Assembly: GCA_041691135.1 (NCBI GenBank)
Contig: JBEPVF010000001.1
Span: 160,001 to 224,000 of the forward strand
DNA length: 64,000 nt
DNA from: Candidatus Peribacteria bacterium
GTDB taxonomy: Bacteria; Patescibacteriota; Gracilibacteria; Peribacterales; Peribacteraceae
Reading direction: 5' to 3'
This document shows positions 28,406-36,086 of this stretch, piece after piece; positions within the stretch are counted from its first letter, which is position 1; each line of letters opens with the position of its first letter. The notes below the pieces were generated by a model. It did not search any database and was not told where the DNA came from. It saw only the letters and a list, made by a program, of their open reading frames with translations. The translations under genes were made by a program, and so were the position numbers.

Positions 28406-29413
28406 ATGAAACGAAATCGATCATCAGTGAAGGGTATAAGTAAAGACAACTTAACAATTGAGCTGCAGGACTGGCGCATCCTCGTGCGCGATCACGTATT
28501 GAAGGCAAAGAAGCCGCTGATCGTCGTTCTGGGTCCTACTGCCGGCGGCAAGACAAATTTTTCGATAGAAGTTGCGCGCTACATCGATAGAGAACTGAAG
28601 GAAAACTTTGCCGAGTGGCACAGTGGCGCCGAGATCATCAACGCCGATTCGCGGCAACTGTACCGCGGTATGGATATCGGCACGGCGAAAATCCGCGAAA
28701 TGGAGATGGATAAAATTCCGCACCATCTGATCGACGTATTGGATCCTCAAGAAAATCTGACCATGGCCTGGTACAAAGAGCGAGCGGAAAAGTGCATCGA
28801 AGAAATTCTGACGCGCGGAAATATTCCCATCCTCGTCGGCGGATCGATGCTCTACATCAGCAGTATTATCGATAACCTGCAGCCGCTCCCGCCCACCGAT
28901 CCGGCGCTGCGGCGATCAATCGAAGAGGAATACGAACGAGATGGGGGATTGATGCTCCACCAACAACTGACCGAGATGGATCCGGATACCGCCAATACAT
29001 TTCATCATCACAATAAACCGTACGTTGTCCGCGCCACCGAACTCGCGCGAACGACGAATGAAAAACCGTCGGCCTTAAAGAAGAGAGGAGAGTCGCCCTT
29101 CGATCTCCTCATCTTCGGCCTGCATGTAGCCAAATCCGAATTAGACCGCCGCATCGACGAGCGCGCTAAAGCTATGCTGGAAGAAGGATGGATCGGCGAA
29201 GTGGAGCATTTGCTAGATCAGGGGGTCCTGCCGAATGAGCCGGGAATGAAGAGCACCGGTTACCAGGAAATCGCAGGCTGGCTCATGAATCCGGAATCCA
29301 TGGATCGCGACGAGCTCACCGAAATTATCGCTCGAAAAACAAGGCAGTACGCCAAGCGGCAACTGACCTGGTGGCGAAGCGATACAAGAATCCATTGGCT
29401 GGATCTCTCGTAA
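28406..29413 (+). CDS. miaA: tRNA dimethylallyltransferase
   Basis: GPTAGGKT, NADSRQLYRGMDIGTAK, PHHLID, YAKRQLTW motifs. Confidence 0.96.
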   Translation: MKRNRSSVKGISKDNLTIELQDWRILVRDHVLKAKKPLIVVLGPTAGGKTNFSIEVARYIDRELKENFAEWHSGAEIINADSRQLYRGMDIGTAKIREMEMDKIPHHLIDVLDPQENLTMAWYKERAEKCIEEILTRGNIPILVGGSMLYISSIIDNLQPLPPTDPALRRSIEEEYERDGGLMLHQQLTEMDPDTANTFHHHNKPYVVRATELARTTNEKPSALKKRGESPFDLLIFGLHVAKSELDRRIDERAKAMLEEGWIGEVEHLLDQGVLPNEPGMKSTGYQEIAGWLMNPESMDRDELTEIIARKTRQYAKRQLTWWRSDTRIHWLDLS

Positions 29414-29457
29414 AAATAACAACCGCGCCACTACATGGCGTTCTCCAAAAAAAGCTT

Positions 29458-29844
29458 TCAAATTTTGAACACCTCTCCATAGTCTTTCTCCACTCGCTCC
29501 TTCATCTGCCACAGATGTTCGATCATCGTTTCGAGTTGCGGACTGCTGTTGGGCGTCTGCGTCGATTTGTAGAACTCAATGATGTGGCGGGCCTGATCCA
29601 CGACATTCGGGAGAGCCTTGTCGACATTCGATTTATCAGTCTCCTTTAAATCGTAATAGAGCTGCGTCACGAATGACTCGGGATGAATCAGATTGATTTC
29701 ACCCACATCGGCAAGCTGCACGATCTTCAACATGAATTCTTCGTGCTCTTTCTTCATTTTTCCACCGATCGCCTGGCCGGCTTTCTTCTGGTCTTCTTCG
29801 GGAAGATCGCTGTGTTGCTCGGCGAGGGAAATGAGATCAGCCAT
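29458..29844 (-). CDS. hypothetical protein
   Basis: clean helical ORF with a TATAGT promoter-like box upstream. Confidence 0.7.
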   Translation of the reverse strand: MADLISLAEQHSDLPEEDQKKAGQAIGGKMKKEHEEFMLKIVQLADVGEINLIHPESFVTQLYYDLKETDKSNVDKALPNVVDQARHIIEFYKSTQTPNSSPQLETMIEHLWQMKERVEKDYGEVFKI

Positions 29845-29930
29845 TGAAAAAGACTATACGCTGGTTGGCAAAAGATGACTAGTCGCTTGTTTGGTTGCAT
29901 CAATTGGCTTCATACCCTCACACTGCACGT

Positions 29931-31955
29931 ATGCGTCTCGATGCCTTGCTGACGGCCAAGCTCCTGCATACCACTCAGCCGTACATTGATGCGCTGAACA
30001 AAATGGAAATTGAAACAATCGAAGATTTACTGCTCTACCTGCCGCGAGCGCATGAGGATCTGAGTCAGATGCAAACGATCGCCACCGCACCGCTCGATAC
30101 TAAAATCACGCTCCGCGGTTCGGTTGATGGATTGAAATTGGTCCGGACAAAACACGGCAAGCAACTGGTCACCGGCACCTTCATCGATGCCGACGGCGAT
30201 ATGTGCGATGTGATCTGGTTCAATCAGCCGCATATTCTGCGCATGTTGAAGGACAACGACGAAGTGGTGCTGACCGGCAAATTGGTCGAGAACAATTACA
30301 AGTTGCAACTGCAGAGCCCGCAATTCGAAAAGAATGGCACACGGCCGCTGGTGCACGCCGGCCGTCTGGTTCCCATCTATCCTCAGCACGAGCAGATCAA
30401 CACCAAGTGGCTGCGGGAAAAGATCGTATTGATCAAAGATGCCATCCAAAATATTCACGAGACGCTGCCGGAGGAGGTTGTGACGAGTGAACATTTGATG
30501 CTGCGTGCCGATGCCATCCGGTCGCTCCACTTTCCCGAGAAGCCCGAGGAGGTGCAGCAGGCATTGGAGCGAATGGAATTCGAACAGATGTACGAGATGC
30601 AACGCCAGGCATTGGAACGTAAACGTGATTGGCAGGGTAAGGGGCAGGCACGACTGCGCACGACGATGGACGTCGAACTCATCCGTCAGTTCTTCACGTC
30701 GCTCAAATTCACACCGACCGACAGCCAACGCATCGCGATCTACGAAATCCTGCGCGACATGGAAAAAGAAACATCGATGTCACGACTGCTGGAAGGGGAT
30801 GTGGGATCCGGCAAAACGCTGGTAGCCGTGGCCATCATCGCCAATACCATTCGCAGCGGCGGGCAATCGGCGCTGATGGTGCCCACCGAAGTGCTGGCGC
30901 GCCAGCACGCCGCCAGCATCACACGCTTGCTCGTGAACTTTCATGCGTTTCTGCAGCACAATACCGATCATCAGCTTACCGATTTTCCGTTGCCGACCGT
31001 GGCATTGCTCACCGGCTCTACTCCGCGTTCCGAGGCGAATGAGATCAAACAGCGACTGGCAACCGGTACCATCGATGTCATTATCGGCACGCACGCATTG
31101 ATCGAAGATACCGTGCAGTTCAAAGATCTTCGTCTGGTGATCATCGACGAACAACATCGGTTCGGCGTCCTCCAGCGCCAACGTCTGCGAGAGAAGGGGA
31201 GTCCACATGTACTCTCGATGACAGCCACGCCGATTCCGCGCACGCTCGCTCTTACCGCGTTCGGCGATCATGATTTATCGGTTCTACTGGAGAAACCCGG
31301 TCGTCGTCAGAAAATCGATACCAAAGTCGTTGCCCCGCAAGACCGAAAGACGGTAGAGCATTTTATCGATCAGCAGATTCAGACGGGCAGACAAGTGTTC
31401 GTCATCTGCCCGCTCATCACCGAGAGCGAGGAACTGGATGAAGTGCGCAACGTAGAGCAGGAAGTGGCGCGCCTGCGCGAGGCATTTCCACATCGAACGA
31501 TTACCATGCTGCACGGCCGCATGAAGTCGGACGAAAAGCAGTCGATTATGCAGGGATTCCGCGACAAGCAATCGGACGTTCTCGTGTCGACGTCCGTCAT
31601 CGAAGTCGGCATCGATATTCCCAACGCCACGATCATCATCATCGAAGGTGCCGAGCGTTTCGGTCTGTCGCAATTACATCAGCTGCGCGGACGAGTCGGA
31701 AGAGGTGATGACAAGAGTTACTGCTTCCTTTTCACCAGCGCCCCGAACATGGCCCACTCTCCGCGCCTCAAAGCGATGGAGCAACATGATTCCGGCTTCC
31801 AGCTGGCCGAAATCGACCTTAAGCTCCGCGGTCCCGGCGAACTCTACGGCATCCGACAGAGCGGTATCCCGGATCTTCGCATCGGCACATTGATGAATCC
31901 GGAATTGATCGTGCGAGCAAGACGGGCGGCGGAAAAATTTGTATTCGGAAGTTGA
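29931..31955 (+). CDS. recG: ATP-dependent DNA helicase RecG
   Basis: RLLEGDVGSGKT, DEQHRFGV, MTATPIPRT, LHQLRGRVGRG, DLKLRGPGE motifs. Confidence 0.96.
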   Translation: MRLDALLTAKLLHTTQPYIDALNKMEIETIEDLLLYLPRAHEDLSQMQTIATAPLDTKITLRGSVDGLKLVRTKHGKQLVTGTFIDADGDMCDVIWFNQPHILRMLKDNDEVVLTGKLVENNYKLQLQSPQFEKNGTRPLVHAGRLVPIYPQHEQINTKWLREKIVLIKDAIQNIHETLPEEVVTSEHLMLRADAIRSLHFPEKPEEVQQALERMEFEQMYEMQRQALERKRDWQGKGQARLRTTMDVELIRQFFTSLKFTPTDSQRIAIYEILRDMEKETSMSRLLEGDVGSGKTLVAVAIIANTIRSGGQSALMVPTEVLARQHAASITRLLVNFHAFLQHNTDHQLTDFPLPTVALLTGSTPRSEANEIKQRLATGTIDVIIGTHALIEDTVQFKDLRLVIIDEQHRFGVLQRQRLREKGSPHVLSMTATPIPRTLALTAFGDHDLSVLLEKPGRRQKIDTKVVAPQDRKTVEHFIDQQIQTGRQVFVICPLITESEELDEVRNVEQEVARLREAFPHRTITMLHGRMKSDEKQSIMQGFRDKQSDVLVSTSVIEVGIDIPNATIIIIEGAERFGLSQLHQLRGRVGRGDDKSYCFLFTSAPNMAHSPRLKAMEQHDSGFQLAEIDLKLRGPGELYGIRQSGIPDLRIGTLMNPELIVRARRAAEKFVFGS

Positions 31956-32017
31956 ACGAAGATTGAGGCGAAGTAATTATAAAGATTGCTCTATGAGCAT
32001 TTGTGAATTTTTCAGTG

Positions 32018-32226
32018 GGGCGCTGCCGCTTTCTCCGGAGCAATCGCAAAGAAGCATATTCATCGTGCGCTCTTGCCGTACCCTTCCCCAACCCTCTTCT
32101 ATTATGTCCTTCCCCGTACCAGCGTGTGGGAGGACCGGGGAAGGTGCTCCGCAGAGCGGATGGGGTGCATCAGCCCACGATGAATCGGCTTACTGCCACT
32201 GCTCCGCGCAGAAAGCGACAGCGCCC
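32018..32226. ncRNA. ~210-nt rod-shaped structured RNA, 6S RNA-like
   Basis: nested pairings GGGCGCTG.CGCTTTCT/AGAAAGCG.CAGCGCCC, CGGAGCA/TGCTCCG, ATTCATCGTG/CACGATGAAT, a large internal bubble, then CCTTCCCCG/CGGGGAAGG. Confidence 0.55.
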
Positions 32227-32311
32227 AAATCATTAAACTGATACCCGTTTCATTTCTGGTTCCGCACTTCTTGCGTCTTTGAAATTCCCTGAATCTTTCA
32301 AGAATATTTTA

Positions 32312-32339
32312 TTGACTCACTCATCATTCCAAGTAAAAT
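32312..32339 (+). promoter_or_regulatory. sigma70-type promoter for the leader region
   Basis: TTGACT-N16-TAAAAT; predicted TSS falls at or next to GTG 32347. Confidence 0.7.
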
Positions 32340-32346
32340 CTCACTC

Positions 32347-32427
32347 GTGACTACCTTACACCGCTCCTCCGGCAACACCATGATGCAGATGATGATGCCA
32401 CGATTGCGAGGGCGGGTAACTGCATAG
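32347..32427 (+). CDS. Met-rich leader peptide 1 (26 aa)
   Basis: GTG start, (M)TTLHRSSGNTMMQMMMPRLRGRVTA*; 3' part overlaps the antiterminator arm. Confidence 0.7.
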   Translation: MTTLHRSSGNTMMQMMMPRLRGRVTA

Positions 32428-32477
32428 TCACACTCTATGTTCCCGAAATTCCCCTCGCATCGATCGCGGGGTTTTTT
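32401..32477 (+). terminator. attenuator 1 (antiterminator/terminator)
   Basis: TGCGAGGG..CGGGTAA..CATAG pairs with CTATG-TTCCCG..CCCTCGCA; alternative terminator CCCCTCGC..GCGGGG-TTTTTT at 32451-32477. Confidence 0.75.
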
Positions 32478-32496
32478 GTAGCCAAAAAGAAATCTC

Positions 32497-32592
32497 ATGA
32501 ACCTTCCTCAATTCTCTCCTAACGGCAGCATTACAAACATCACCACCATGATGAGTATGTGCATGCGTGTCCCGCGGGCGATGAGAGTATGA
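32497..32592 (+). CDS. Met-rich leader peptide 2 (31 aa)
   Basis: MNLPQFSPNGSITNITTMMSMCMRVPRAMRV*. Confidence 0.7.
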   Translation: MNLPQFSPNGSITNITTMMSMCMRVPRAMRV

Positions 32593-32643
32593 GAGAAATG
32601 GAACTCATAACTCACCCTGCGGGACTGCTGCAGGGGAGTTTTT
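32569..32643 (+). terminator. attenuator 2 (antiterminator/terminator)
   Basis: GTCCCGCGGG..TGAG..TATGAG pairs with CTCATAACTCACCCTGCGGGAC; alternative terminator AACTCACCCTGC..GCAGGGGAGTT-TTT at 32609-32643. Confidence 0.75.
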
Positions 32644-32666
32644 CTATTTCTTTTATATTTTCTCTC

Positions 32667-33620
32667 ATGACTCATAATTTTCCAACCTATTCACTTCTCC
32701 TTTCCGATACGTACGGTTCCTTCAATGACGATCCACTTCAGGCCCCCTTTGATCCTGATGTCACGACTTTGACCGATCTTGCGATCGTCCGCGATGCAAT
32801 TGAGCATGGTGATCAGGAATTACCATCGCTTCGCTATAACCAAAAGGTCCCCATTCGCGGAAGAGAAGAGGCACTGGCTCATCATCTTTTACACTTGTTA
32901 GTTGACTGGCACGATCAATACGAAGACATCCTGCGGTCTGCAGATATTTATAATGGCGTTTTCATCAATGCAGCTAGCCGGGACCGCATTGGTGGCATAG
33001 AACCATTCTCAGTGGCAGAAACAGACAATAATCTCCGCGTTGTCACGAGCAACTTGTCTTACCTGAGTGGCATAAAAAATAGAGTCAAATCCTTGAAGAC
33101 TATTCCAAATCAAGATAACCATCTGTTTCCCAATGGTACGCAATTTCGCTCAGAAGTGACGCATCTACTACTGCGCCGAAATAATACAAAAGCGAAACTT
33201 GTGGAGAGAAATACATCCGACATACCGCATGATTCGAAGGATAATGATTTGCGCGTGCAATTTGTCGACACCTTTGGCAACCTTATCACTGGTAATGAAC
33301 GTACGACTGAAGAAATTTTGCCGCGCCTGACTCAGGCAGCACACAGCGAACGCCGTCGCATTAAAATTATCATCGGCGAAAATGGGTCACATCAAACACT
33401 GCCTGGCTATGCAAGTACATCACTTGAAGCAGGAGAGACCGGAAAAGTTCTAGCATACGAAAACGGTAGACATGTTGATATCGTACGAAAATGGTTACCC
33501 GGCGAAAGCGCCAAAGTCACTACCGAAAAATCAGCGTACGTCTTGGCAGGCCGTCCCACAGAGAGGCAAGCAAAAGTGAGAATAGCCTTCGAAAGCGAGG
33601 AAGGTTTTGAAAACCTATAG
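32667..33620 (+). CDS. divergent DUF62 / SAM hydroxide adenosyltransferase (SAM hydrolase)-like protein
   Basis: N-terminal LLLSDTYG..DP, FINAASR, TQFRS, and C-domain FVDTFGNLIT matching the family D.FGN..T signature. Confidence 0.65.
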   Translation: MTHNFPTYSLLLSDTYGSFNDDPLQAPFDPDVTTLTDLAIVRDAIEHGDQELPSLRYNQKVPIRGREEALAHHLLHLLVDWHDQYEDILRSADIYNGVFINAASRDRIGGIEPFSVAETDNNLRVVTSNLSYLSGIKNRVKSLKTIPNQDNHLFPNGTQFRSEVTHLLLRRNNTKAKLVERNTSDIPHDSKDNDLRVQFVDTFGNLITGNERTTEEILPRLTQAAHSERRRIKIIIGENGSHQTLPGYASTSLEAGETGKVLAYENGRHVDIVRKWLPGESAKVTTEKSAYVLAGRPTERQAKVRIAFESEEGFENL

Positions 33621-33628
33621 GCACCGCT

Positions 33629-33667
33629 GTAGAGCAATCATTTTTTAAAAGGTGATTGCTCTGCTTT
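33629..33667 (+). terminator. hairpin downstream of the DUF62-like gene
   Basis: AGAGCAATCA..TGATTGCTCT 10-bp stem. Confidence 0.6.
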
Positions 33668-33746
33668 AAAGGCTACGGAATGACAATGGATTGCTTTGTC
33701 AGCTTCTTATATACTGCTACACTAAACCCGTCTTCTCCCGCTTTTT

Positions 33747-34406
33747 ATGGCTGATCAAACCACTGGAACGAATCCACCGCCACGACCCGGCGACCCGGTA
33801 CCGGAGGGTGGGTTAGATCCCACGCAAGTATTTGCCACGCCGCCTTCGATGGCACCGCAGGGCGGAGCTGCAGGTGCGCAGCAAGGAGCTGCTGCCGGGC
33901 AACAAGGAGATCAGGGAGCCGCGCCTCAGCCGGACCAGGGTCCGCCTCCGCCGCCTCCAGGCACGGTCGCGACCAAGGAAATGGGATACGACGACGAAGA
34001 TATTCGCGTTTTGGGCGAAGTGGGCAACTACCGCTTCGGCAGTATCAGCGCCACACTCAACAATGATCATTTGATGATTCCGGCCCATCCGGAAACGGTG
34101 TTCGATGAGCAGTTCTTTCTCGCGCTCTTGCGCGGAAGCATCTCACTCACGCGCGACGAAAAGTGGCGCATCATCCAAGCCATCCCCAAGTTGAGTCAGT
34201 TTCAAATCGATGAACTGCAGAAAATCCTGGACGAGGAGCGTCACAAGTTCAGCGAACTCTCGCCCAAGCACCTGCTCCAGTTGATGAAGCTCGAACAGAA
34301 GCACTCCGAAGACTGGCGCGACCTGCAATCGATCAATATCCAACAGGGAGCCAAGCAGGCCGAACAGTCGCAGGCGGAAGAGATCAGAAAGCAACTCGGC
34401 CTTTGA
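33747..34406 (+). CDS. hypothetical protein with P/Q/G-rich N-terminus
   Basis: typical codon style; low-complexity N-half and helical C-half (SISLTRDEKWRII..LSQFQIDEL). Confidence 0.75.
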   Translation: MADQTTGTNPPPRPGDPVPEGGLDPTQVFATPPSMAPQGGAAGAQQGAAAGQQGDQGAAPQPDQGPPPPPPGTVATKEMGYDDEDIRVLGEVGNYRFGSISATLNNDHLMIPAHPETVFDEQFFLALLRGSISLTRDEKWRIIQAIPKLSQFQIDELQKILDEERHKFSELSPKHLLQLMKLEQKHSEDWRDLQSINIQQGAKQAEQSQAEEIRKQLGL

Positions 34407-34438
34407 TGTTGTCTTTCCGCTGATTTGTCTGAATCCTT

Positions 34439-34969
34439 TTAAATATTTTGATGAAACAAAAACAACGCCACCAATCCAAGTACCGTCAGTCCCGCTCCGG
34501 TAAGCAAGCCACGTCCGAAAAGGCGGTGTACTGAGGAGAGGAGAAGAAACAAAAAGGCGCCGAAGGTGAAGGAGAGAACAATCGGCGACCAGAACAGATC
34601 ATCAATGTATGGTAACTGAAACGGAAATTTGCGGAGGAATTGGTACGAGCCCAACGCATAGATCAAAAAATACCAAGCCAGTAACCAGCCGGCATACAAT
34701 CGCAATGTATCGATGATCGGATAGTATAATCCGCCCGTACGCTTTGCGGTGCTTGTTTCCAATACAACGGGAGTCGCCGTCGTTTCGTGTTCCGTCACTT
34801 GCCAGGCGACCGGTTCTTCTTTTTTGATCGGATCAACTTCTTCGATTGAATCAATTTGCACATTCATCTGCCGCAGTGCTGCACGCGCCGCCTGTATGTT
34901 GAGCGCATCGATCATTCCTTGTGCGGCCTCGCCTTGTTCGTCGTGAGAGGTATAACGGAATAGGGGCAT
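34439..34969 (-). CDS. membrane protein with PilC/GspF-like N-terminal motif
   Basis: MPLFRY...QG...QGMIDA start and three C-terminal TM helices. Confidence 0.65.
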   Translation of the reverse strand: MPLFRYTSHDEQGEAAQGMIDALNIQAARAALRQMNVQIDSIEEVDPIKKEEPVAWQVTEHETTATPVVLETSTAKRTGGLYYPIIDTLRLYAGWLLAWYFLIYALGSYQFLRKFPFQLPYIDDLFWSPIVLSFTFGAFLFLLLSSVHRLFGRGLLTGAGLTVLGLVALFLFHQNI

Positions 34970-35024
34970 GGAGGGGATTGTACTATGCCTCTTATAAGGC
35001 GGCCATCATAAGATGACGGGCTGC

Positions 35025-35153
35025 TGAGGAAACCGACGGACCAAGGCAACCAAGAATATTAAGAGAGTATTGGAGATGATAGTAATTGCGAGAAAAAAAG
35101 AAGCCGAGGATGTCCTCGGCTTCTTCCGTACATTGATTCCGTTGGTTTCCTCA
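35025..35153. repeat. inverted repeat with internal minus-strand terminator
   Basis: TGAGGAAACCGACGGA / TCCGTTGGTTTCCTCA (1 mismatch); inner AAGAAGCCGAGG..CCTCGGCTTCTT preceded by an A run. Confidence 0.6.
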
Positions 35154-36086
35154 CGAAGGTGTTGCCGTCGTAACATTCTTCAAAATATATTCGATCTGCG
35201 TCCTGAGGCTTGCTGGTCCGCTGATTTCGAAGTGACGGTTCTCAGTCCATGCACGATAACCGGTAACTGTGTCACCCTGCACCTTGATTTGTCCGTCAGA
35301 GGCGCCTGTCGATTCCACAGAACCAGACATGAGGTTAACCGCAATCGGCCCGTCACCCATGTTCTGAATTTCTTCATTGCTCAATTCTACGTGCCACAGG
35401 AAGGAGGTCGTCGCCCCGTACGATTTGTACCACGAGTTCTTGTGCACCGGAATGCAGAAGCCGATATGGGACGAACAATACTGTTGGCTCCAACTGGCGA
35501 TATCCATGTTGTACTTTGCCATCACATCGATGCGCGCCTGTTTGGCCGCATCGGCATCGATGCTCGATCCTGCACTGGAAAACGTCTGCTCGGCCGAAGA
35601 CGATTGTGCCGCCATTTGACGTGACGATGACTGAAGAGAATGCGCACTGGATGATTCACTGCTCATATTGAACGACTCTTGCGACGAAGAAGATGAGGCG
35701 TCGAAGGCGGTTACCTGCATGACATTCATGATTGTGCCACCGGCTTCTGCCGTCGGTTGTTCGTCACCGAACACCTCCACTTCTTTTCCGACGAAAGAAT
35801 CCAAATCCAGGGTCTGGCTCTTGAGCAAGATGAAACGACCGTCATCGAGTGTGAGCCGATGCGTGCCTTCCTGGTAAAATGAGATCCCGGCTTTGTCGAG
35901 CATACCGCGATAGCGCACATCCGCCGTGACAGTTGCCTCGCTCACCGAGCTGGACGACAAGACCATCTCCATTGATGAACTTGAGGCCGCATCCGGTAAT
36001 GTCGATGAGGGATTTGCTTGCTGGGAAAAACAGGCTCCAAGCCCCAGAGAAAGTAGGGCGATGCCGGCGGGAATGATCTTCTTCAT
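35151..36086 (-). CDS. Ser-rich putative lipoprotein
   Basis: MKK-hydrophobic-LGAC lipobox; Ser-rich linkers between two domains. Confidence 0.75.
   Translation of the reverse strand: MKKIIPAGIALLSLGLGACFSQQANPSSTLPDAASSSSMEMVLSSSSVSEATVTADVRYRGMLDKAGISFYQEGTHRLTLDDGRFILLKSQTLDLDSFVGKEVEVFGDEQPTAEAGGTIMNVMQVTAFDASSSSSQESFNMSSESSSAHSLQSSSRQMAAQSSSAEQTFSSAGSSIDADAAKQARIDVMAKYNMDIASWSQQYCSSHIGFCIPVHKNSWYKSYGATTSFLWHVELSNEEIQNMGDGPIAVNLMSGSVESTGASDGQIKVQGDTVTGYRAWTENRHFEISGPASLRTQIEYILKNVTTATPS

What the first reader, a model, noticed from the sequence alone, without database searches (positions are those of the whole stretch)
32312..33620. Tandem methionine-codon ribosomal attenuators controlling a SAM-hydrolase-like gene
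Seen: a promoter (TTGACT-N16-TAAAAT) points at leader ORF1 (32347-32427, ...MMQMMM...), then a GC stem plus T6. Leader ORF2 follows (32497-32592, ...MMSMCM....M..), then a second stem plus T run, then the gene. In both units the sequence just 3' of the Met cluster is complementary to the 5' arm of the terminator, so the two hairpins are mutually exclusive. The two units differ in sequence but share architecture. Established: this is the layout of trp/his/leu/thr leader-peptide attenuators, whereas Met/SAM genes are normally controlled by MetJ, SAM riboswitches or T-boxes. Inference: stalling at AUG codons when Met-tRNA is low allows read-through of two serial gates, giving a sharp switch that induces SAM-to-Met recycling in a probable auxotroph. 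I know of no described Met-leader attenuator class, but I could not search the literature.
Basis: partly seen in the sequence, partly recalled or inferred. Interest (0 to 1): 0.92.

Follow-up and report, generated by a model that had tools for sequence, protein, structure and literature searches.

The report
Methionine-codon leader attenuators in Peribacteria
Two short upstream reading frames packed with methionine codons, each followed by a switchable transcription stop signal, appear to turn on a gene for a SAM-splitting, methionine-releasing enzyme when methionine runs low, and the same device sits before methionine-making genes in many related tiny-genome bacteria.

Summary
At 32312-32666 a promoter is followed by two leader ORFs with Met-codon clusters (MMQMMM, MMSMCM). 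Each is followed by an intrinsic terminator. In each, the strand just 3' of the Met cluster, inside the leader ORF, is complementary to the terminator's 5' arm.

The device is conserved. Met-cluster uORFs precede 18 of 20 homologs outside one leaderless subgroup. A 21-base pattern scan of 185,579 species genomes gave 49 loci, 44 of them leader-like. Of these, 43 are on records titled Peribacteria, Peregrinibacteria or Patescibacteria.

Where a downstream gene could be named, it makes methionine:
- a divergent SAM_HAT/DUF62-fold enzyme
- homocysteine S-methyltransferase
- MetA
- a Cys/Met PLP enzyme

In 23 of 30 units with a recognisable promoter, the uORF start codon lies 7-11 nt after the -10 box. 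This suggests leaderless leader peptides.

Seven full-text searches and Rfam found no described Met-codon leader attenuator. I read it as a new amino-acid specificity of classical ribosome-mediated attenuation, tandem in this window. There is no RNA or experimental evidence. The enzyme's activity is inferred from fold and remote homology only.

The parts
32312..32339 (+). Sigma-70-type promoter TTGACT-N16-TAAAAT. The -10 box ends 7 nt before the GTG of uORF1.
   Evidence: 10 of 12 matches; the same -10-to-start spacing of 7-11 nt in 23 of 30 related units with a recognisable promoter.
32347..32427 (+). Leader ORF 1, 26 codons, GTG start at the predicted transcript 5' end. Met codons at 32380-32385 and 32389-32397 (MMQMMM). 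Stop TAG at 32425-32427.
   Evidence: Near-identical uORFs in L137 and L146.
32361..32370 (+). Possible 'region 1' (CCGCUCCUCC), which pairs with the antiterminator strand when no ribosome is present.
   Evidence: the free-RNA MFE shows this helix plus the terminator. Not significant across relatives (4 of 43 units), so this is tentative.
32400..32416 (+). Antiterminator 1, 5' strand. Core GCGAGGG at 32406-32412 plus CGGG at 32413-32416. It lies inside uORF1 and starts 3 nt after the last Met codon.
   Evidence: dG -19.4, z -4.1, 0 of 300 shuffles; forms when a ribosome is placed on the 2nd Met codon.
32442..32477 (+). Terminator 1. The 5' arm CCCCTCGC (32451-32458) is shared with the antiterminator. 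The 3' arm is GCGGGG (32466-32471), followed by T6 at 32472-32477. CCCG at 32442-32445 is the inner antiterminator partner.
32497..32592 (+). Leader ORF 2, 31 codons, ATG start. Met codons at 32548-32553, 32557-32559, 32563-32565 and 32581-32583 (MMSMCM....M). Stop TGA at 32590-32592.
   Evidence: Orthologous second unit in L034 (MNLHHVHAFGTSRVILKMMSMLMRSPRANRA).
32568..32586 (+). Antiterminator 2, 5' strand. Core GTCCCGCGGG at 32569-32578. It lies inside uORF2 and starts 3 nt after the Met cluster.
   Evidence: dG -26.5, z -4.9, 0 of 300 shuffles..
32611..32643 (+). Terminator 2: CUC-A-CCCUGCGG / loop / CUGCAGGG-GAG, then U5. The 5' arm 32615-32625 is the antiterminator partner.
   Evidence: (dG -18.7).
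32581..32669 (+). Long lower extension of the terminator-2 hairpin. The purine-rich end of uORF2 (32581-32603) pairs with the U/C-rich tract 32639-32669, which contains the AUG of the main gene.
   Evidence: z -4.94, 0 of 200 shuffles. An analogous A-rich/U-rich extension appears in the centroid fold of L034 unit 2. Any effect on translation is inference.
32667..33620 (+). Regulated gene, 317 aa: a divergent two-domain member of the SAM_HAT (DUF62, chlorinase, fluorinase) superfamily.
   Evidence: Start. AF2 model pLDDT 84.4, pTM 0.83. Foldseek PDB: all 29 hits at E<=0.001 belong to this family. The A3 profile retrieves SAM_HAT proteins.
33631..33665 (+). Hairpin AGAGCAATCA...TGATTGCTCT after the gene's stop codon. 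Probably the gene's own terminator, which would make the unit monocistronic.
   Evidence: Read. The scan did not call it, so this is weak.

Best explanation
This is a pair of classical ribosome-mediated (leader-peptide) transcription attenuators whose regulatory codons are AUG.

Proposed mechanism, all steps inferred:
1. Transcription starts about 7 nt after the -10 box, so uORF1 is probably translated as a leaderless message from its 5' GUG.
2. With ample Met-tRNA(Met), the ribosome runs through the Met cluster to the stop codon. It then covers the GC-rich strand just 3' of the cluster, so the terminator hairpin forms and RNA polymerase stops at the U-tract.
3. With scarce Met-tRNA, the ribosome stalls early in the AUG cluster. 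The GC-rich strand is left free to pair with the terminator's 5' arm (antiterminator), and polymerase reads on.
4. The second unit repeats this test, so full-length mRNA needs two successive read-through decisions.

The gene that is switched on encodes a divergent SAM_HAT-fold enzyme. By analogy with its family it attacks C5' of S-adenosylmethionine and releases L-methionine. That would give a methionine auxotroph a way to recover Met from SAM.

The same leader type controls other Met-producing genes across Candidatus Peribacteria and relatives.

Shown: the anatomy, its conservation, the codon-level conservation, and the Met-related gene set. Inferred: stalling, termination, tandem sharpening and enzyme chemistry.
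For: 1. Anatomy in the window.

2. Footprint-masked folds.
- Unit 1: a ribosome on the 2nd Met codon gives the antiterminator. A ribosome at the stop codon, or no ribosome, gives the terminator.
- Unit 2: a ribosome at the stop codon gives the terminator. A stalled ribosome, or none, gives the antiterminator.

3. Conservation before homologs.
- Of 30 homolog loci from 401 class genomes, 18 carry an upstream uORF of at most 70 codons with at least 3 ATG in 6 codons.
- The 12 without are 10 members of one subgroup that sits behind gatA or another gene, plus L026 and L032.

4. Terminators and antiterminators.
- A terminator was found in 20 of 21 units.
- An antiterminator strand lies 1-15 nt after the Met cluster and inside the uORF in 20 of 20 units evaluated.
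- 19 of those 20 were beaten by at most 5 of 300 shuffles. In a second set, 9 of 12 met the same mark.
- At least a dozen different sequence solutions keep the same three-strand relation.

5. Alignment counts on 57 units.
- Terminator: 86.1% of cells paired against 40-60% when slid, 5 of 7 pairs with double changes, covariation beaten by 0 of 500 shuffles.
- Antiterminator: 81.6% paired against 37-58% when slid.

6. Codon-periodic conservation. The ATGs are nearly invariant, while the single interrupting codon varies freely: Q, S, A, H, E, R, N, P, T, D.

7. Gene set behind independent leaders.
- PF02574 in 8 loci, PF04204 in 2 plus one second gene, PF01053 in 1.
- In the gene-blind pattern scan, 44 leader-like loci gave 16 SAM_HAT-like and 8 PF02574-like downstream genes.

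8. Start codon 7-11 nt after the -10 box in 23 of 30 units.

9. The enzyme.
- Foldseek best E 2.8e-9, TM 0.44-0.61, with SAM hydroxide adenosyltransferase, (R)-SAM hydrolase MJ1651, SalL and fluorinase.
- The A3 profile finds 197 representatives among 1.84 billion.
- Of 10 tail hits checked, 9 carry SAM_HAT_C at E<=0.001 (8 above Pfam's cut-off), and 2 carry SAM_HAT_N, one of them above its cut-off.

10. The own genome has metK but no match to PF02574, PF01053 or PF01717.
Against: - No expression data. The one sequencing run that holds this DNA is not on record as RNA.
- All genomes are metagenome bins, so nothing here has been tested at the bench.
- The antiterminator's alignment-based covariation score is weak: 39 of 500 shuffles reach it. 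Most family members share GCGAGGG/CCCTCGC, and MAFFT misregisters the divergent ones.
- A '1:2' protector helix is predicted in unit 1 of the window, but it is significant in only 4 of 43 units.
- With a generous footprint on the 4th Met codon, the unit 1 model still predicts the terminator. Only stalls early in the cluster are predicted to relieve termination.
- Four complete units (L067, L068, L071, L079) have a hairpin with only a U/C-rich tail instead of a run of four or more T. L069 is cut by a contig end. L024 gave no terminator. L086's antiterminator is not supported, with 45 of 300 shuffles as good.
- 10 of 30 homologs, including ones in the same family, have no leader at all. One congener, L146 (69% identical over the 190 aa aligned, cut by the contig end), has only a single unit.
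- The window protein's Pfam hit is below threshold: 18 bits against a cut-off of 25.5. PDB profile hits are non-significant at E 0.13. Catalytic residues were not mapped.
- Met starvation would also limit initiator tRNA, so the leader might not be translated at all. The outcome then depends on the unproven default fold.
Confidence: 0.85

Rival explanations
1. The leaders sense general translation stress or ribosome slowing rather than methionine specifically. Examples would be defects in formylation or initiation, or antibiotics, as with erm and cat leaders. On this view the AUG runs are incidental.
For: - The uORFs appear leaderless, so they depend heavily on initiation.
- Basic residues (R..RG) follow the cluster, a feature reminiscent of arrest peptides.
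- Several downstream genes have no known function.
Against: - The conserved feature is the AUG run itself, with a freely varying interrupting codon.
- The conserved 'RG' is explained by the GCGAGGG antiterminator strand.
- Every downstream gene that Pfam or the A3 profile could name is Met-related. The hisS genes lie over 230 nt further on, behind a conserved small ORF.
Confidence: 0.05
2. The leader is an RNA switch that binds a ligand or protein directly (Met, SAM, tRNA-Met or a regulator). The reading frame is then irrelevant.
For: - Met and SAM genes are usually under SAM riboswitches, T-boxes or repressors. This is established knowledge.
- This genome seems to use a SAM-I riboswitch before metK: RF00162, 41.9 bits, E 4e-8, just under the gathering score.
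Against: - No Rfam family matches the leader at E<=1.
- Apart from the three pairing strands, nothing but in-frame ATGs is conserved.
- The frame is always open from a start codon at the predicted transcript 5' end to a stop placed just past the antiterminator strand.
Confidence: 0.04
3. The Met-rich peptides are the functional products. They could be a precursor modified by the downstream enzyme, a metal- or oxidant-scavenging Met-rich peptide, or a Met reserve. The hairpin would then only set the peptide-to-enzyme ratio.
For: - Short ORFs followed by leaky terminators occur before modifying enzymes in peptide natural-product clusters (recalled).
- The core MMxMMM is conserved.
Against: - The N-terminal parts vary in length and sequence.
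- The same peptide type precedes unrelated enzymes: HcyMT, MetA, a PLP enzyme and SAM_HAT-like.
- The strand 3' of the Met cluster always mimics the terminator's 3' arm, which a product-only role does not require.
Confidence: 0.04
4. Chance or low-complexity (ATG)n repeats next to ordinary terminators.
For: ATGATG-type strings are common inside genes. The loose pattern hit 356 of 401 genomes, and the stricter one still hit mostly coding sequence.
Against: - The 21-base pattern has about 0.3 hits expected by uniform chance in 596 Gb (my estimate). It gave 49 loci, 44 of them with the full uORF architecture and 43 of those from one lineage.
- In the own genome only this locus combines a short Met-cluster ORF with a terminator.
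Confidence: 0.01

Closest known systems
trp, his, leu, thr, pheA and ilv leader-peptide attenuators of Proteobacteria (Rfam Trp_leader, His_leader, Leu_leader, Thr_leader, Phe_leader)
   Same: A short leader ORF with a run of codons for the end-product amino acid. A terminator, and a mutually exclusive antiterminator whose 5' strand lies between the regulatory codons and the leader's stop codon.
   Different: - The regulatory codon is AUG (Met). I found no description of that in seven full-text searches.
- There is no Rfam match.
- The leaders appear leaderless rather than SD-led.
- Two units stand in tandem here.
- The protector 1:2 helix is not demonstrably conserved.
- The host lineage is CPR/Patescibacteria.
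Leaderless leader peptides of Deinococcus deserti (PMC4007540; abstract, section 16 and passages read)
   Same: [quoted passage not shown]
   Different: - The text I could read names Cys (cysS) and Trp (trpEGD) examples only.
- The list of all 14 is in supplementary table S9, which I could not open, so a Met example there cannot be excluded.
- Different phylum, and no tandem arrangement is described.
Cys-codon leader peptides before cys and cbs operons in Actinobacteria (PMC1262725; passages read)
   Same: A sulfur-amino-acid leader peptide predicted by comparative genomics.
   Different: - Those lack terminator and antiterminator hairpins, and Rho dependence was proposed.
- The paper states that no conserved RNA regulatory structure was seen upstream of methionine operons.
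Met-specific T-box ('met leader RNA') of Staphylococcus aureus, and SAM riboswitches (PMC3771891 and PMC7913692, search listing and abstracts only; Rfam RF00162)
   Same: Control of Met and SAM genes by premature termination. The T-box also reads tRNA(Met) charging.
   Different: - Those sense uncharged tRNA or SAM by RNA structure, without translation.
- Here the sensor is a translating ribosome.
- In this genome a SAM-I-like element sits before metK, while the Met leader sits before the SAM-splitting enzyme.
SAM hydroxide adenosyltransferase / (R)-SAM hydrolase (DUF62: PH0463 2wr8, MJ1651 2f4n and 22uy), SalL chlorinase, FlA fluorinase
   Same: - Two-domain fold.
- The 'vD.FGN' motif aligns with 2zbu and lies within the short stretch matched in MJ1651, whose alignment was not shown.
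- The chemistry of this family releases L-methionine from SAM (established for the family).
   Different: - About 12-14% identity.
- 40-60 residues longer.
- The window protein fails both Pfam models at their cut-offs.
- Nucleophile and substrate stereochemistry are unknown.

Membership tests
Leader-peptide (ribosome-mediated) transcription attenuators | Short ORF in the 5' leader that carries a cluster of codons for one amino acid. | tested here: met
   Window peptides: MMQMMM and MMSMCM. Seen in 18 of 20 non-subgroup-A homolog loci and in 44 of 49 pattern loci.
Leader-peptide (ribosome-mediated) transcription attenuators | Intrinsic terminator between the leader ORF and the regulated gene. 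| tested here: met
   20 of 21 units; 12 of 17; four complete units have only U/C-rich tails and one is cut by a contig end.
Leader-peptide (ribosome-mediated) transcription attenuators | Antiterminator mutually exclusive with the terminator. Its 5' strand lies just after the regulatory codons and is covered by a ribosome at the leader's stop codon. | tested here: met
   20 of 20 present; 19 of 20 beaten by at most 5 of 300 shuffles; 9 of 12.
Leader-peptide (ribosome-mediated) transcription attenuators | Upstream 1:2 protector or pause helix. | tested here: inconclusive
   Predicted in unit 1 of the window. Only 4 of 43 units beat 95% of shuffles.
Leader-peptide (ribosome-mediated) transcription attenuators | The regulatory amino acid matches the pathway of the controlled genes. 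| tested here: met
   Homocysteine S-methyltransferase, MetA/HTS, a Cys/Met PLP enzyme and the SAM_HAT-fold enzyme.
Leader-peptide (ribosome-mediated) transcription attenuators | Read-through depends on translation of the leader and on charged tRNA. | not testable with these tools
   No RNA run is listed and there is no bench test.
Existing Rfam leader, riboswitch and T-box families | Match to a curated covariance model. | tested here: not met
   no family at E<=1 in 32300-32670. The only hit in 29000-36000 is a sub-threshold Ysr141 match inside recG.
SAM_HAT (DUF62, chlorinase, fluorinase) superfamily | Two-domain SAM_HAT fold. | tested here: met
   (pLDDT 84.4); all 29 hits at E<=0.001 are from this family, with probability 1.00.
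SAM_HAT (DUF62, chlorinase, fluorinase) superfamily | Pfam SAM_HAT_N (PF01887) and SAM_HAT_C (PF20257) above their gathering scores. | tested here: not met
   the C domain scores 18 bits against a cut-off of 25.5, and there is no N-domain hit; 11 of 28 family members hit SAM_HAT_C at E<=0.01.
SAM_HAT (DUF62, chlorinase, fluorinase) superfamily | Significant profile-level sequence link to recognised members. | tested here: met
   tail hits at E 1e-10 to 5e-7 in a library of 1.84 billion; 8 of the 10 checked pass the SAM_HAT_C cut-off and 1 also passes SAM_HAT_N.
SAM_HAT (DUF62, chlorinase, fluorinase) superfamily | Catalytic and substrate-binding residues, and release of L-Met from SAM. | not tested
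   Residue mapping was not done. Activity cannot be tested here.

The most novel reading that the evidence does not exclude
Peribacteria and related small-genome bacteria use a previously undescribed class of leaderless, Met-codon leader-peptide attenuators as their methionine regulon signal.

- Because methionine charges both initiator and elongator tRNA, the device may integrate failure to initiate with stalling at AUG runs.
- In tandem form, as in this window, it may give an ultrasensitive switch.
- The regulon it marks includes a new branch of SAM-cleaving enzymes that regenerate Met from SAM.
- It also marks several protein families of unknown function, including a 63-92 aa protein, that would then be candidate methionine-salvage genes.
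Probability: 0.75. Interest if true: 0.85.

Novelty: new variant of a known kind. Interest (0 to 1): 0.82.

Why it matters
Leader-peptide attenuation is a textbook mechanism. The described examples I know of, or met in the papers I read, cover Trp, His, Leu, Thr, Phe, Ile/Val and Cys. Methionine is the odd case because its codon is also the start codon. I found no described Met-codon leader.

If this one is real:
- It adds a new specificity to the mechanism.
- In the library I searched, no paper links Peribacteria or Peregrinibacteria with attenuators or leader peptides. It would therefore be a newly described lineage-wide cis-regulatory system in uncultivated CPR bacteria.
- Leaderless leader peptides would be shown outside Deinococcus.
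- It provides a ready-made 'regulon tag' for finding methionine-salvage genes in organisms that cannot be grown. These include a divergent SAM-splitting enzyme family with only 197 representative clusters among 1.84 billion proteins.
- It offers a compact, portable Met-responsive switch for synthetic biology.

Tried and rejected
- The search for related loci in genome contigs with the single protein found nothing.
- The word-indexed protein search gave only 3 proteins. Whole-genome HMM searches were needed.
- The loose pattern ATGATGNNNATGATG over 401 genomes was useless. It hit 356 genomes, mostly in coding sequence.
- The stricter pattern still hit mostly coding Asp/His/Met-rich stretches. 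From its 150 listed places (63 further matches were not listed) I picked 39 by eye and added L061 and L062, which one search had already fetched. Of these 41, 23 proved to be leader-type uORFs. The rest were inside long ORFs: L075, L081, L082, L088, L090-L092, L095-L097, L099, L101, L103, L104, L061, L062. L093 and L094 are ambiguous.
- Test for a conserved 1:2 protector helix: not significant.
- tblastn for remnants of the SAM_HAT-like gene in the 236-526 nt gaps between some leaders and hisS or the 219-aa gene gave no hits. Those gaps hold a conserved small ORF instead.
- NCBIfam and Pfam gave nothing for eight unknown downstream proteins, nor for the window's 219-aa neighbour.
- PDB sequence-profile searches were non-significant.
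- No RNA holder was listed for this DNA.
- Supplementary table S9 of PMC4007540 could bear on novelty. I did not request it, because supplements are closed.
- Recalled only, not seen: the Vitreschak, Lopatovskaya and Merino-Yanofsky surveys of attenuators, which to my memory list no Met leader.
Full report
**What is in the window**

The + strand carries, in order:
- a good sigma-70-type promoter, TTGACT-16-TAAAAT, at 32312-32339
- a 26-codon ORF at 32347-32427 (GTG start; ...NTMMQMMMPRLRGRVTA)
- a GC-rich hairpin at 32453-32471 followed by T6
- a 31-codon ORF at 32497-32592 (...TTMMSMCMRVPRAMRV)
- a stronger hairpin at 32611-32638 followed by T5
- a 317-codon gene

The gene starts at ATG 32667. 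This follows from the alignment with the closest relative, P0002, at 46% identity. The 340-aa gene call held in the protein collection (P0001) would begin inside the leader. The whole leader folds far better than shuffles, with z = -4.83. No Rfam family matches it at E<=1.

**The switch in the window**

In both units the strand that begins 3 nt after the Met cluster lies inside the leader ORF and is complementary to the terminator's 5' arm.
- Unit 1: GCGAGGG-CGGG at 32406-32416 pairs with CCCG and CCCTCGC at 32442-32458. Duplex dG is -19.4, with 0 of 300 shuffles as good.
- Unit 2: GTCCCGCGGG at 32569-32578 pairs with CCCTGCGGGAC at 32615-32625. Duplex dG is -26.5, with 0 of 300 shuffles as good.

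Folding with a masked ribosome footprint gives the pattern expected of an attenuator.
- Unit 1, ribosome on the 2nd Met codon: antiterminator.
- Unit 1, ribosome at the stop codon, or no ribosome: terminator. In the no-ribosome case an upstream CCGCUCCUCC segment sequesters the antiterminator strand.
- Unit 1, generous footprint on the 4th Met codon: still terminator. Only early stalls are predicted to be productive.
- Unit 2, ribosome at the stop codon: terminator.
- Unit 2, stalled ribosome or none: antiterminator.

The terminator-2 hairpin extends downward into a roughly 21-bp helix. This helix pairs the end of uORF2 with the U/C tract that contains the main AUG (z = -4.94). An analogous extension appears in the centroid fold of the orthologous unit of L034. 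Whether it also gates translation is conjecture.

**Chance**

A six-frame scan of the 1.74 Mb genome found 53 windows with at least 4 ATG in 7 codons.
- Of the 20 checked, unit 2 of this locus and two others had a hairpin plus T-run downstream.
- Unit 1 was missed by that crude filter.
- Both others are explained by overlapping long ORFs.

**Conservation before homologs**

The protein is rare.
- 3 hits in the word-indexed 5.8-billion collection.
- 5 of 401 genomes sampled across the phylum.
- 32 of 401 genomes sampled across the class, using a profile.

Of 30 fetched loci, ten form a subgroup (SDTYGRSKNPF...) that mostly sits directly after gatA and has no leader. Of the other 20, 18 carry a Met-cluster uORF upstream.
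- L026 has a Phe/Leu/Met-rich variant.
- L032 has none.

Distant examples are unmistakable.
- L005/L019: MYLDTQSASAATHSPSMMMSMMMRARRELMLIG plus a terminator.
- L006/L020: MNLKTLTTNSFQTSSMMMAMMRSMRRLKFLS plus a terminator.

Terminators were found in 20 of 21 units. Antiterminator strands were found in 20 of 20 units evaluated, and 19 of those were beaten by at most 5 of 300 shuffles. The pairing sequences differ widely between lineages. Examples are GCGAGGG/CCCTCGC, GTCCCGCGGG, GGCGCGAGCTG, GCGAAGGCTT, CACGGACTTCGTGG, TTCCGGCGAAGAC and GGGCTGA. The three-strand relation is nevertheless kept.

On a MAFFT alignment of 57 units:
- The terminator pairs in 86.1% of cells, against 40-60% when slid. 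Compensatory changes occur at 5 of 7 pairs, and 0 of 500 shuffles reach its covariation score.
- The antiterminator pairs in 81.6% of cells, against 37-58% when slid. Its covariation score is weak, with 39 of 500 shuffles reaching it. Most family members share one sequence solution.

A conserved 1:2 protector helix could not be shown: 4 of 43 units.

**The regulon**

I searched 391 class genomes for ATGATGNNNATGATGATG and inspected 41 places. Of these, 39 were picked by eye from the 150 listed, and 2 were loci already fetched. This gave 23 further leader-type uORFs.

The genes behind them:
- homocysteine S-methyltransferase PF02574: L067, L071, L074, L086, L089, L098, L102, L106
- homoserine O-acyltransferase PF04204: L084, L105, and the second gene of L102
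- a Cys/Met PLP enzyme PF01053: L083
- a divergent SAM_HAT-like protein: L080
- proteins with no family match

I then ran a gene-blind, exact 21-base pattern over one genome for each of 185,579 species: ATGATGNNNATGATGATGNNNNNNNNGCGAGG. About 0.3 hits are expected by uniform chance (my estimate). It returned 49 loci.
- 44 have the leader architecture.
- 43 of those lie on records titled Candidatus Peribacteria, Peribacteraceae, Peregrinibacteria or Patescibacteria. One record is titled Kiritimatiellales.
- The 5 others (Bacteroidia, Pirellulaceae, Ferrimicrobium, Proteobacteria, Anaerobiospirillum) are not leaders.

Downstream of the 44:
- SAM_HAT-like: 16
- PF02574-like: 8
- a conserved 63-92 aa ORF (MVNxLP..DG..VNQ.E), then hisS (7) or a homolog of the window's 219-aa neighbour (5)
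- unknown: 8

Every downstream gene that could be named makes methionine.

**Leaderless leaders**

In 23 of 30 units with a recognisable -35/-10 pair, the first in-frame ATG, GTG or TTG lies 7-11 nt after the -10 hexamer, which is at the expected transcription start. In the window the GTG is at +8. This parallels the 5'-terminal leader peptides reported in Deinococcus deserti (PMC4007540, section 16 read). Second units cannot be leaderless. Their ATG follows an A-rich, SD-less spacer.

**The tandem arrangement**

I saw two serial units in three genomes: the window, L034/L131, and L137.
- Unit 2 of L034 is clearly orthologous: same length, and both peptides begin MNL and carry similar MMSMxMR cores.
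- L146, whose protein is 69% identical over the 190 aa aligned (the ORF is cut by the contig end), has only unit 1.

The tandem is therefore a lineage variant, not a defining feature.

**The enzyme**

- Pfam gives only a sub-threshold SAM_HAT_C hit: E 0.0036, 18 bits against a cut-off of 25.5.
- 11 of 28 family members hit SAM_HAT_C at E<=0.01.
- An AlphaFold2 model built on 7 sequences is confident: pLDDT 84.4, pTM 0.83.
- All 29 Foldseek PDB hits at E<=0.001 come from one family: DUF62 SAM hydroxide adenosyltransferases, the (R)-SAM hydrolase MJ1651, SalL/ClA chlorinases and fluorinase. The best E is 2.8e-9 and TM-scores run 0.44-0.61.
- A 28-sequence profile finds 197 representative clusters among 1.84 billion proteins.
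- Of 10 tail hits checked, at E 1e-10 to 5e-7, 8 pass Pfam's SAM_HAT_C cut-off and 1 also passes SAM_HAT_N.

This family is known to displace L-methionine from SAM, so Met release is a reasonable inference. It is untested, and I did not map catalytic residues.

**Physiology**

- The 92%-complete genome has metK.
- metK is preceded by a near-threshold SAM-I riboswitch: RF00162, 41.9 bits against 44.4, E 4e-8.
- There is no match to PF02574, PF01053 or PF01717.

This is consistent with methionine auxotrophy. It suggests a two-signal logic: SAM level controls SAM synthesis, and Met-tRNA level controls SAM breakdown to Met.

**Novelty**

Seven full-text searches found no Met-codon leader-peptide attenuator.
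- 'met leader' in the literature refers to the S. aureus T-box (listing and abstracts).
- Naville and Gautheret 2010 (passages) mention no Met leader in the passages I saw.
- Seliverstov et al. 2005 (passages) state that no RNA structure was found before methionine operons.
- The unseen supplement S9 of PMC4007540 is a caveat.

**Verdict**

I file it as a new variant of leader-peptide attenuation: Met-specific, leaderless, sometimes tandem, and restricted to CPR lineages. It is not a member of any existing Rfam family. What is missing is any direct RNA or biochemical evidence.

Noticed in passing
window 31956-32311: The 356-nt spacer between recG and the leader promoter folds into a long, imperfect hairpin (dG -137.4, z -6.28, 0 of 100 shuffles). 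Pieces of it recur at 72-93% identity about 46 times on 16 contigs of the same genome. It looks like a dispersed palindromic or MITE-like repeat family. The matches stop before the promoter.
   Followed up: partly
G000:C10:14533-14638 (locus L087 434-539), upstream of metK at C10:14636-15871: A full-length match to the SAM-I riboswitch RF00162 at 41.9 bits, just under the gathering score of 44.4 (E 4e-8). It is followed by a hairpin plus T7 before metK.
   Followed up: partly
L127, L138, L144, L142, L116 (oriented, directly after the leader terminator). Also L113, L123-L125, L133, L143, L154 by analogy.: A conserved small ORF of 63-92 codons (consensus start MVNxLP..DG....VNQ.E) is the first gene after the Met leader in loci where hisS or the 219-aa gene follows. 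It has no family match and its function is unknown.
   Followed up: partly
L122 996-2030(-), L126 2353-3354, L135 4213-5304(-), L136 4025-5017(-), L076 1456-2481(-), L068 1617-2420(-), L079 594-1931(-), L100 420-1514: Eight proteins of 268-446 aa sit directly behind Met leaders and have no credible Pfam or NCBIfam match. L122 and L126 are 36% identical to each other. They are candidate methionine-related genes of unknown family.
   Followed up: partly
L022 (oriented 1173-1493) and L025 (oriented 1157-1459): An ORF of about 100 aa, rich in Cys-x-x-Cys pairs with a helix-turn-helix-like tail, lies between the Met leader and the SAM_HAT-like gene. By eye it resembles a small IS-type or regulator protein. 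This is a possible insertion into the leader-gene spacer.
   Followed up: no
L026 (oriented 1288-1422): One homolog has a 44-codon uORF rich in Phe and Leu (…ALRALFLFMFMRTRRRLVRGL) instead of a Met cluster. It still has a strong antiterminator-type complementarity (dG -26.1, 0 of 300 shuffles).
   Followed up: no
window 32598-33620 (protein P0001): The gene call stored in the protein collection starts at ATG 32598, giving 340 aa. It would therefore translate through terminator 2. Homolog alignment puts the start at 32667.
   Followed up: yes
L143 (record titled Kiritimatiellales): A typical Peribacteria-type Met leader (…MGMMMAMMMRSQRGLVRS) and a homolog of the 219-aa Peribacteria gene lie on a contig binned to a different phylum. 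This could be a mis-binned contig or a transfer.
   Followed up: no
window 30732-30929 (-): An Rfam Ysr141 match at 49.8 bits against a gathering score of 196, inside the recG coding region. It most likely reflects protein-coding similarity, not an sRNA.
   Followed up: no
window 33747-34406: The 219-aa Pro/Gly/Gln-rich protein downstream has no Pfam or NCBIfam match. It is conserved next to this locus in relatives (L070, L077, L078, L113, L116, L142, L154), even where the SAM_HAT-like gene is missing.
   Followed up: partly
G659 contig ends (L069 = end of C27; L106 = start of C1): Two contigs of one relative break exactly inside a Met-leader AUG run. The leader or its surroundings may be repeated or hard to assemble there.
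   Followed up: no
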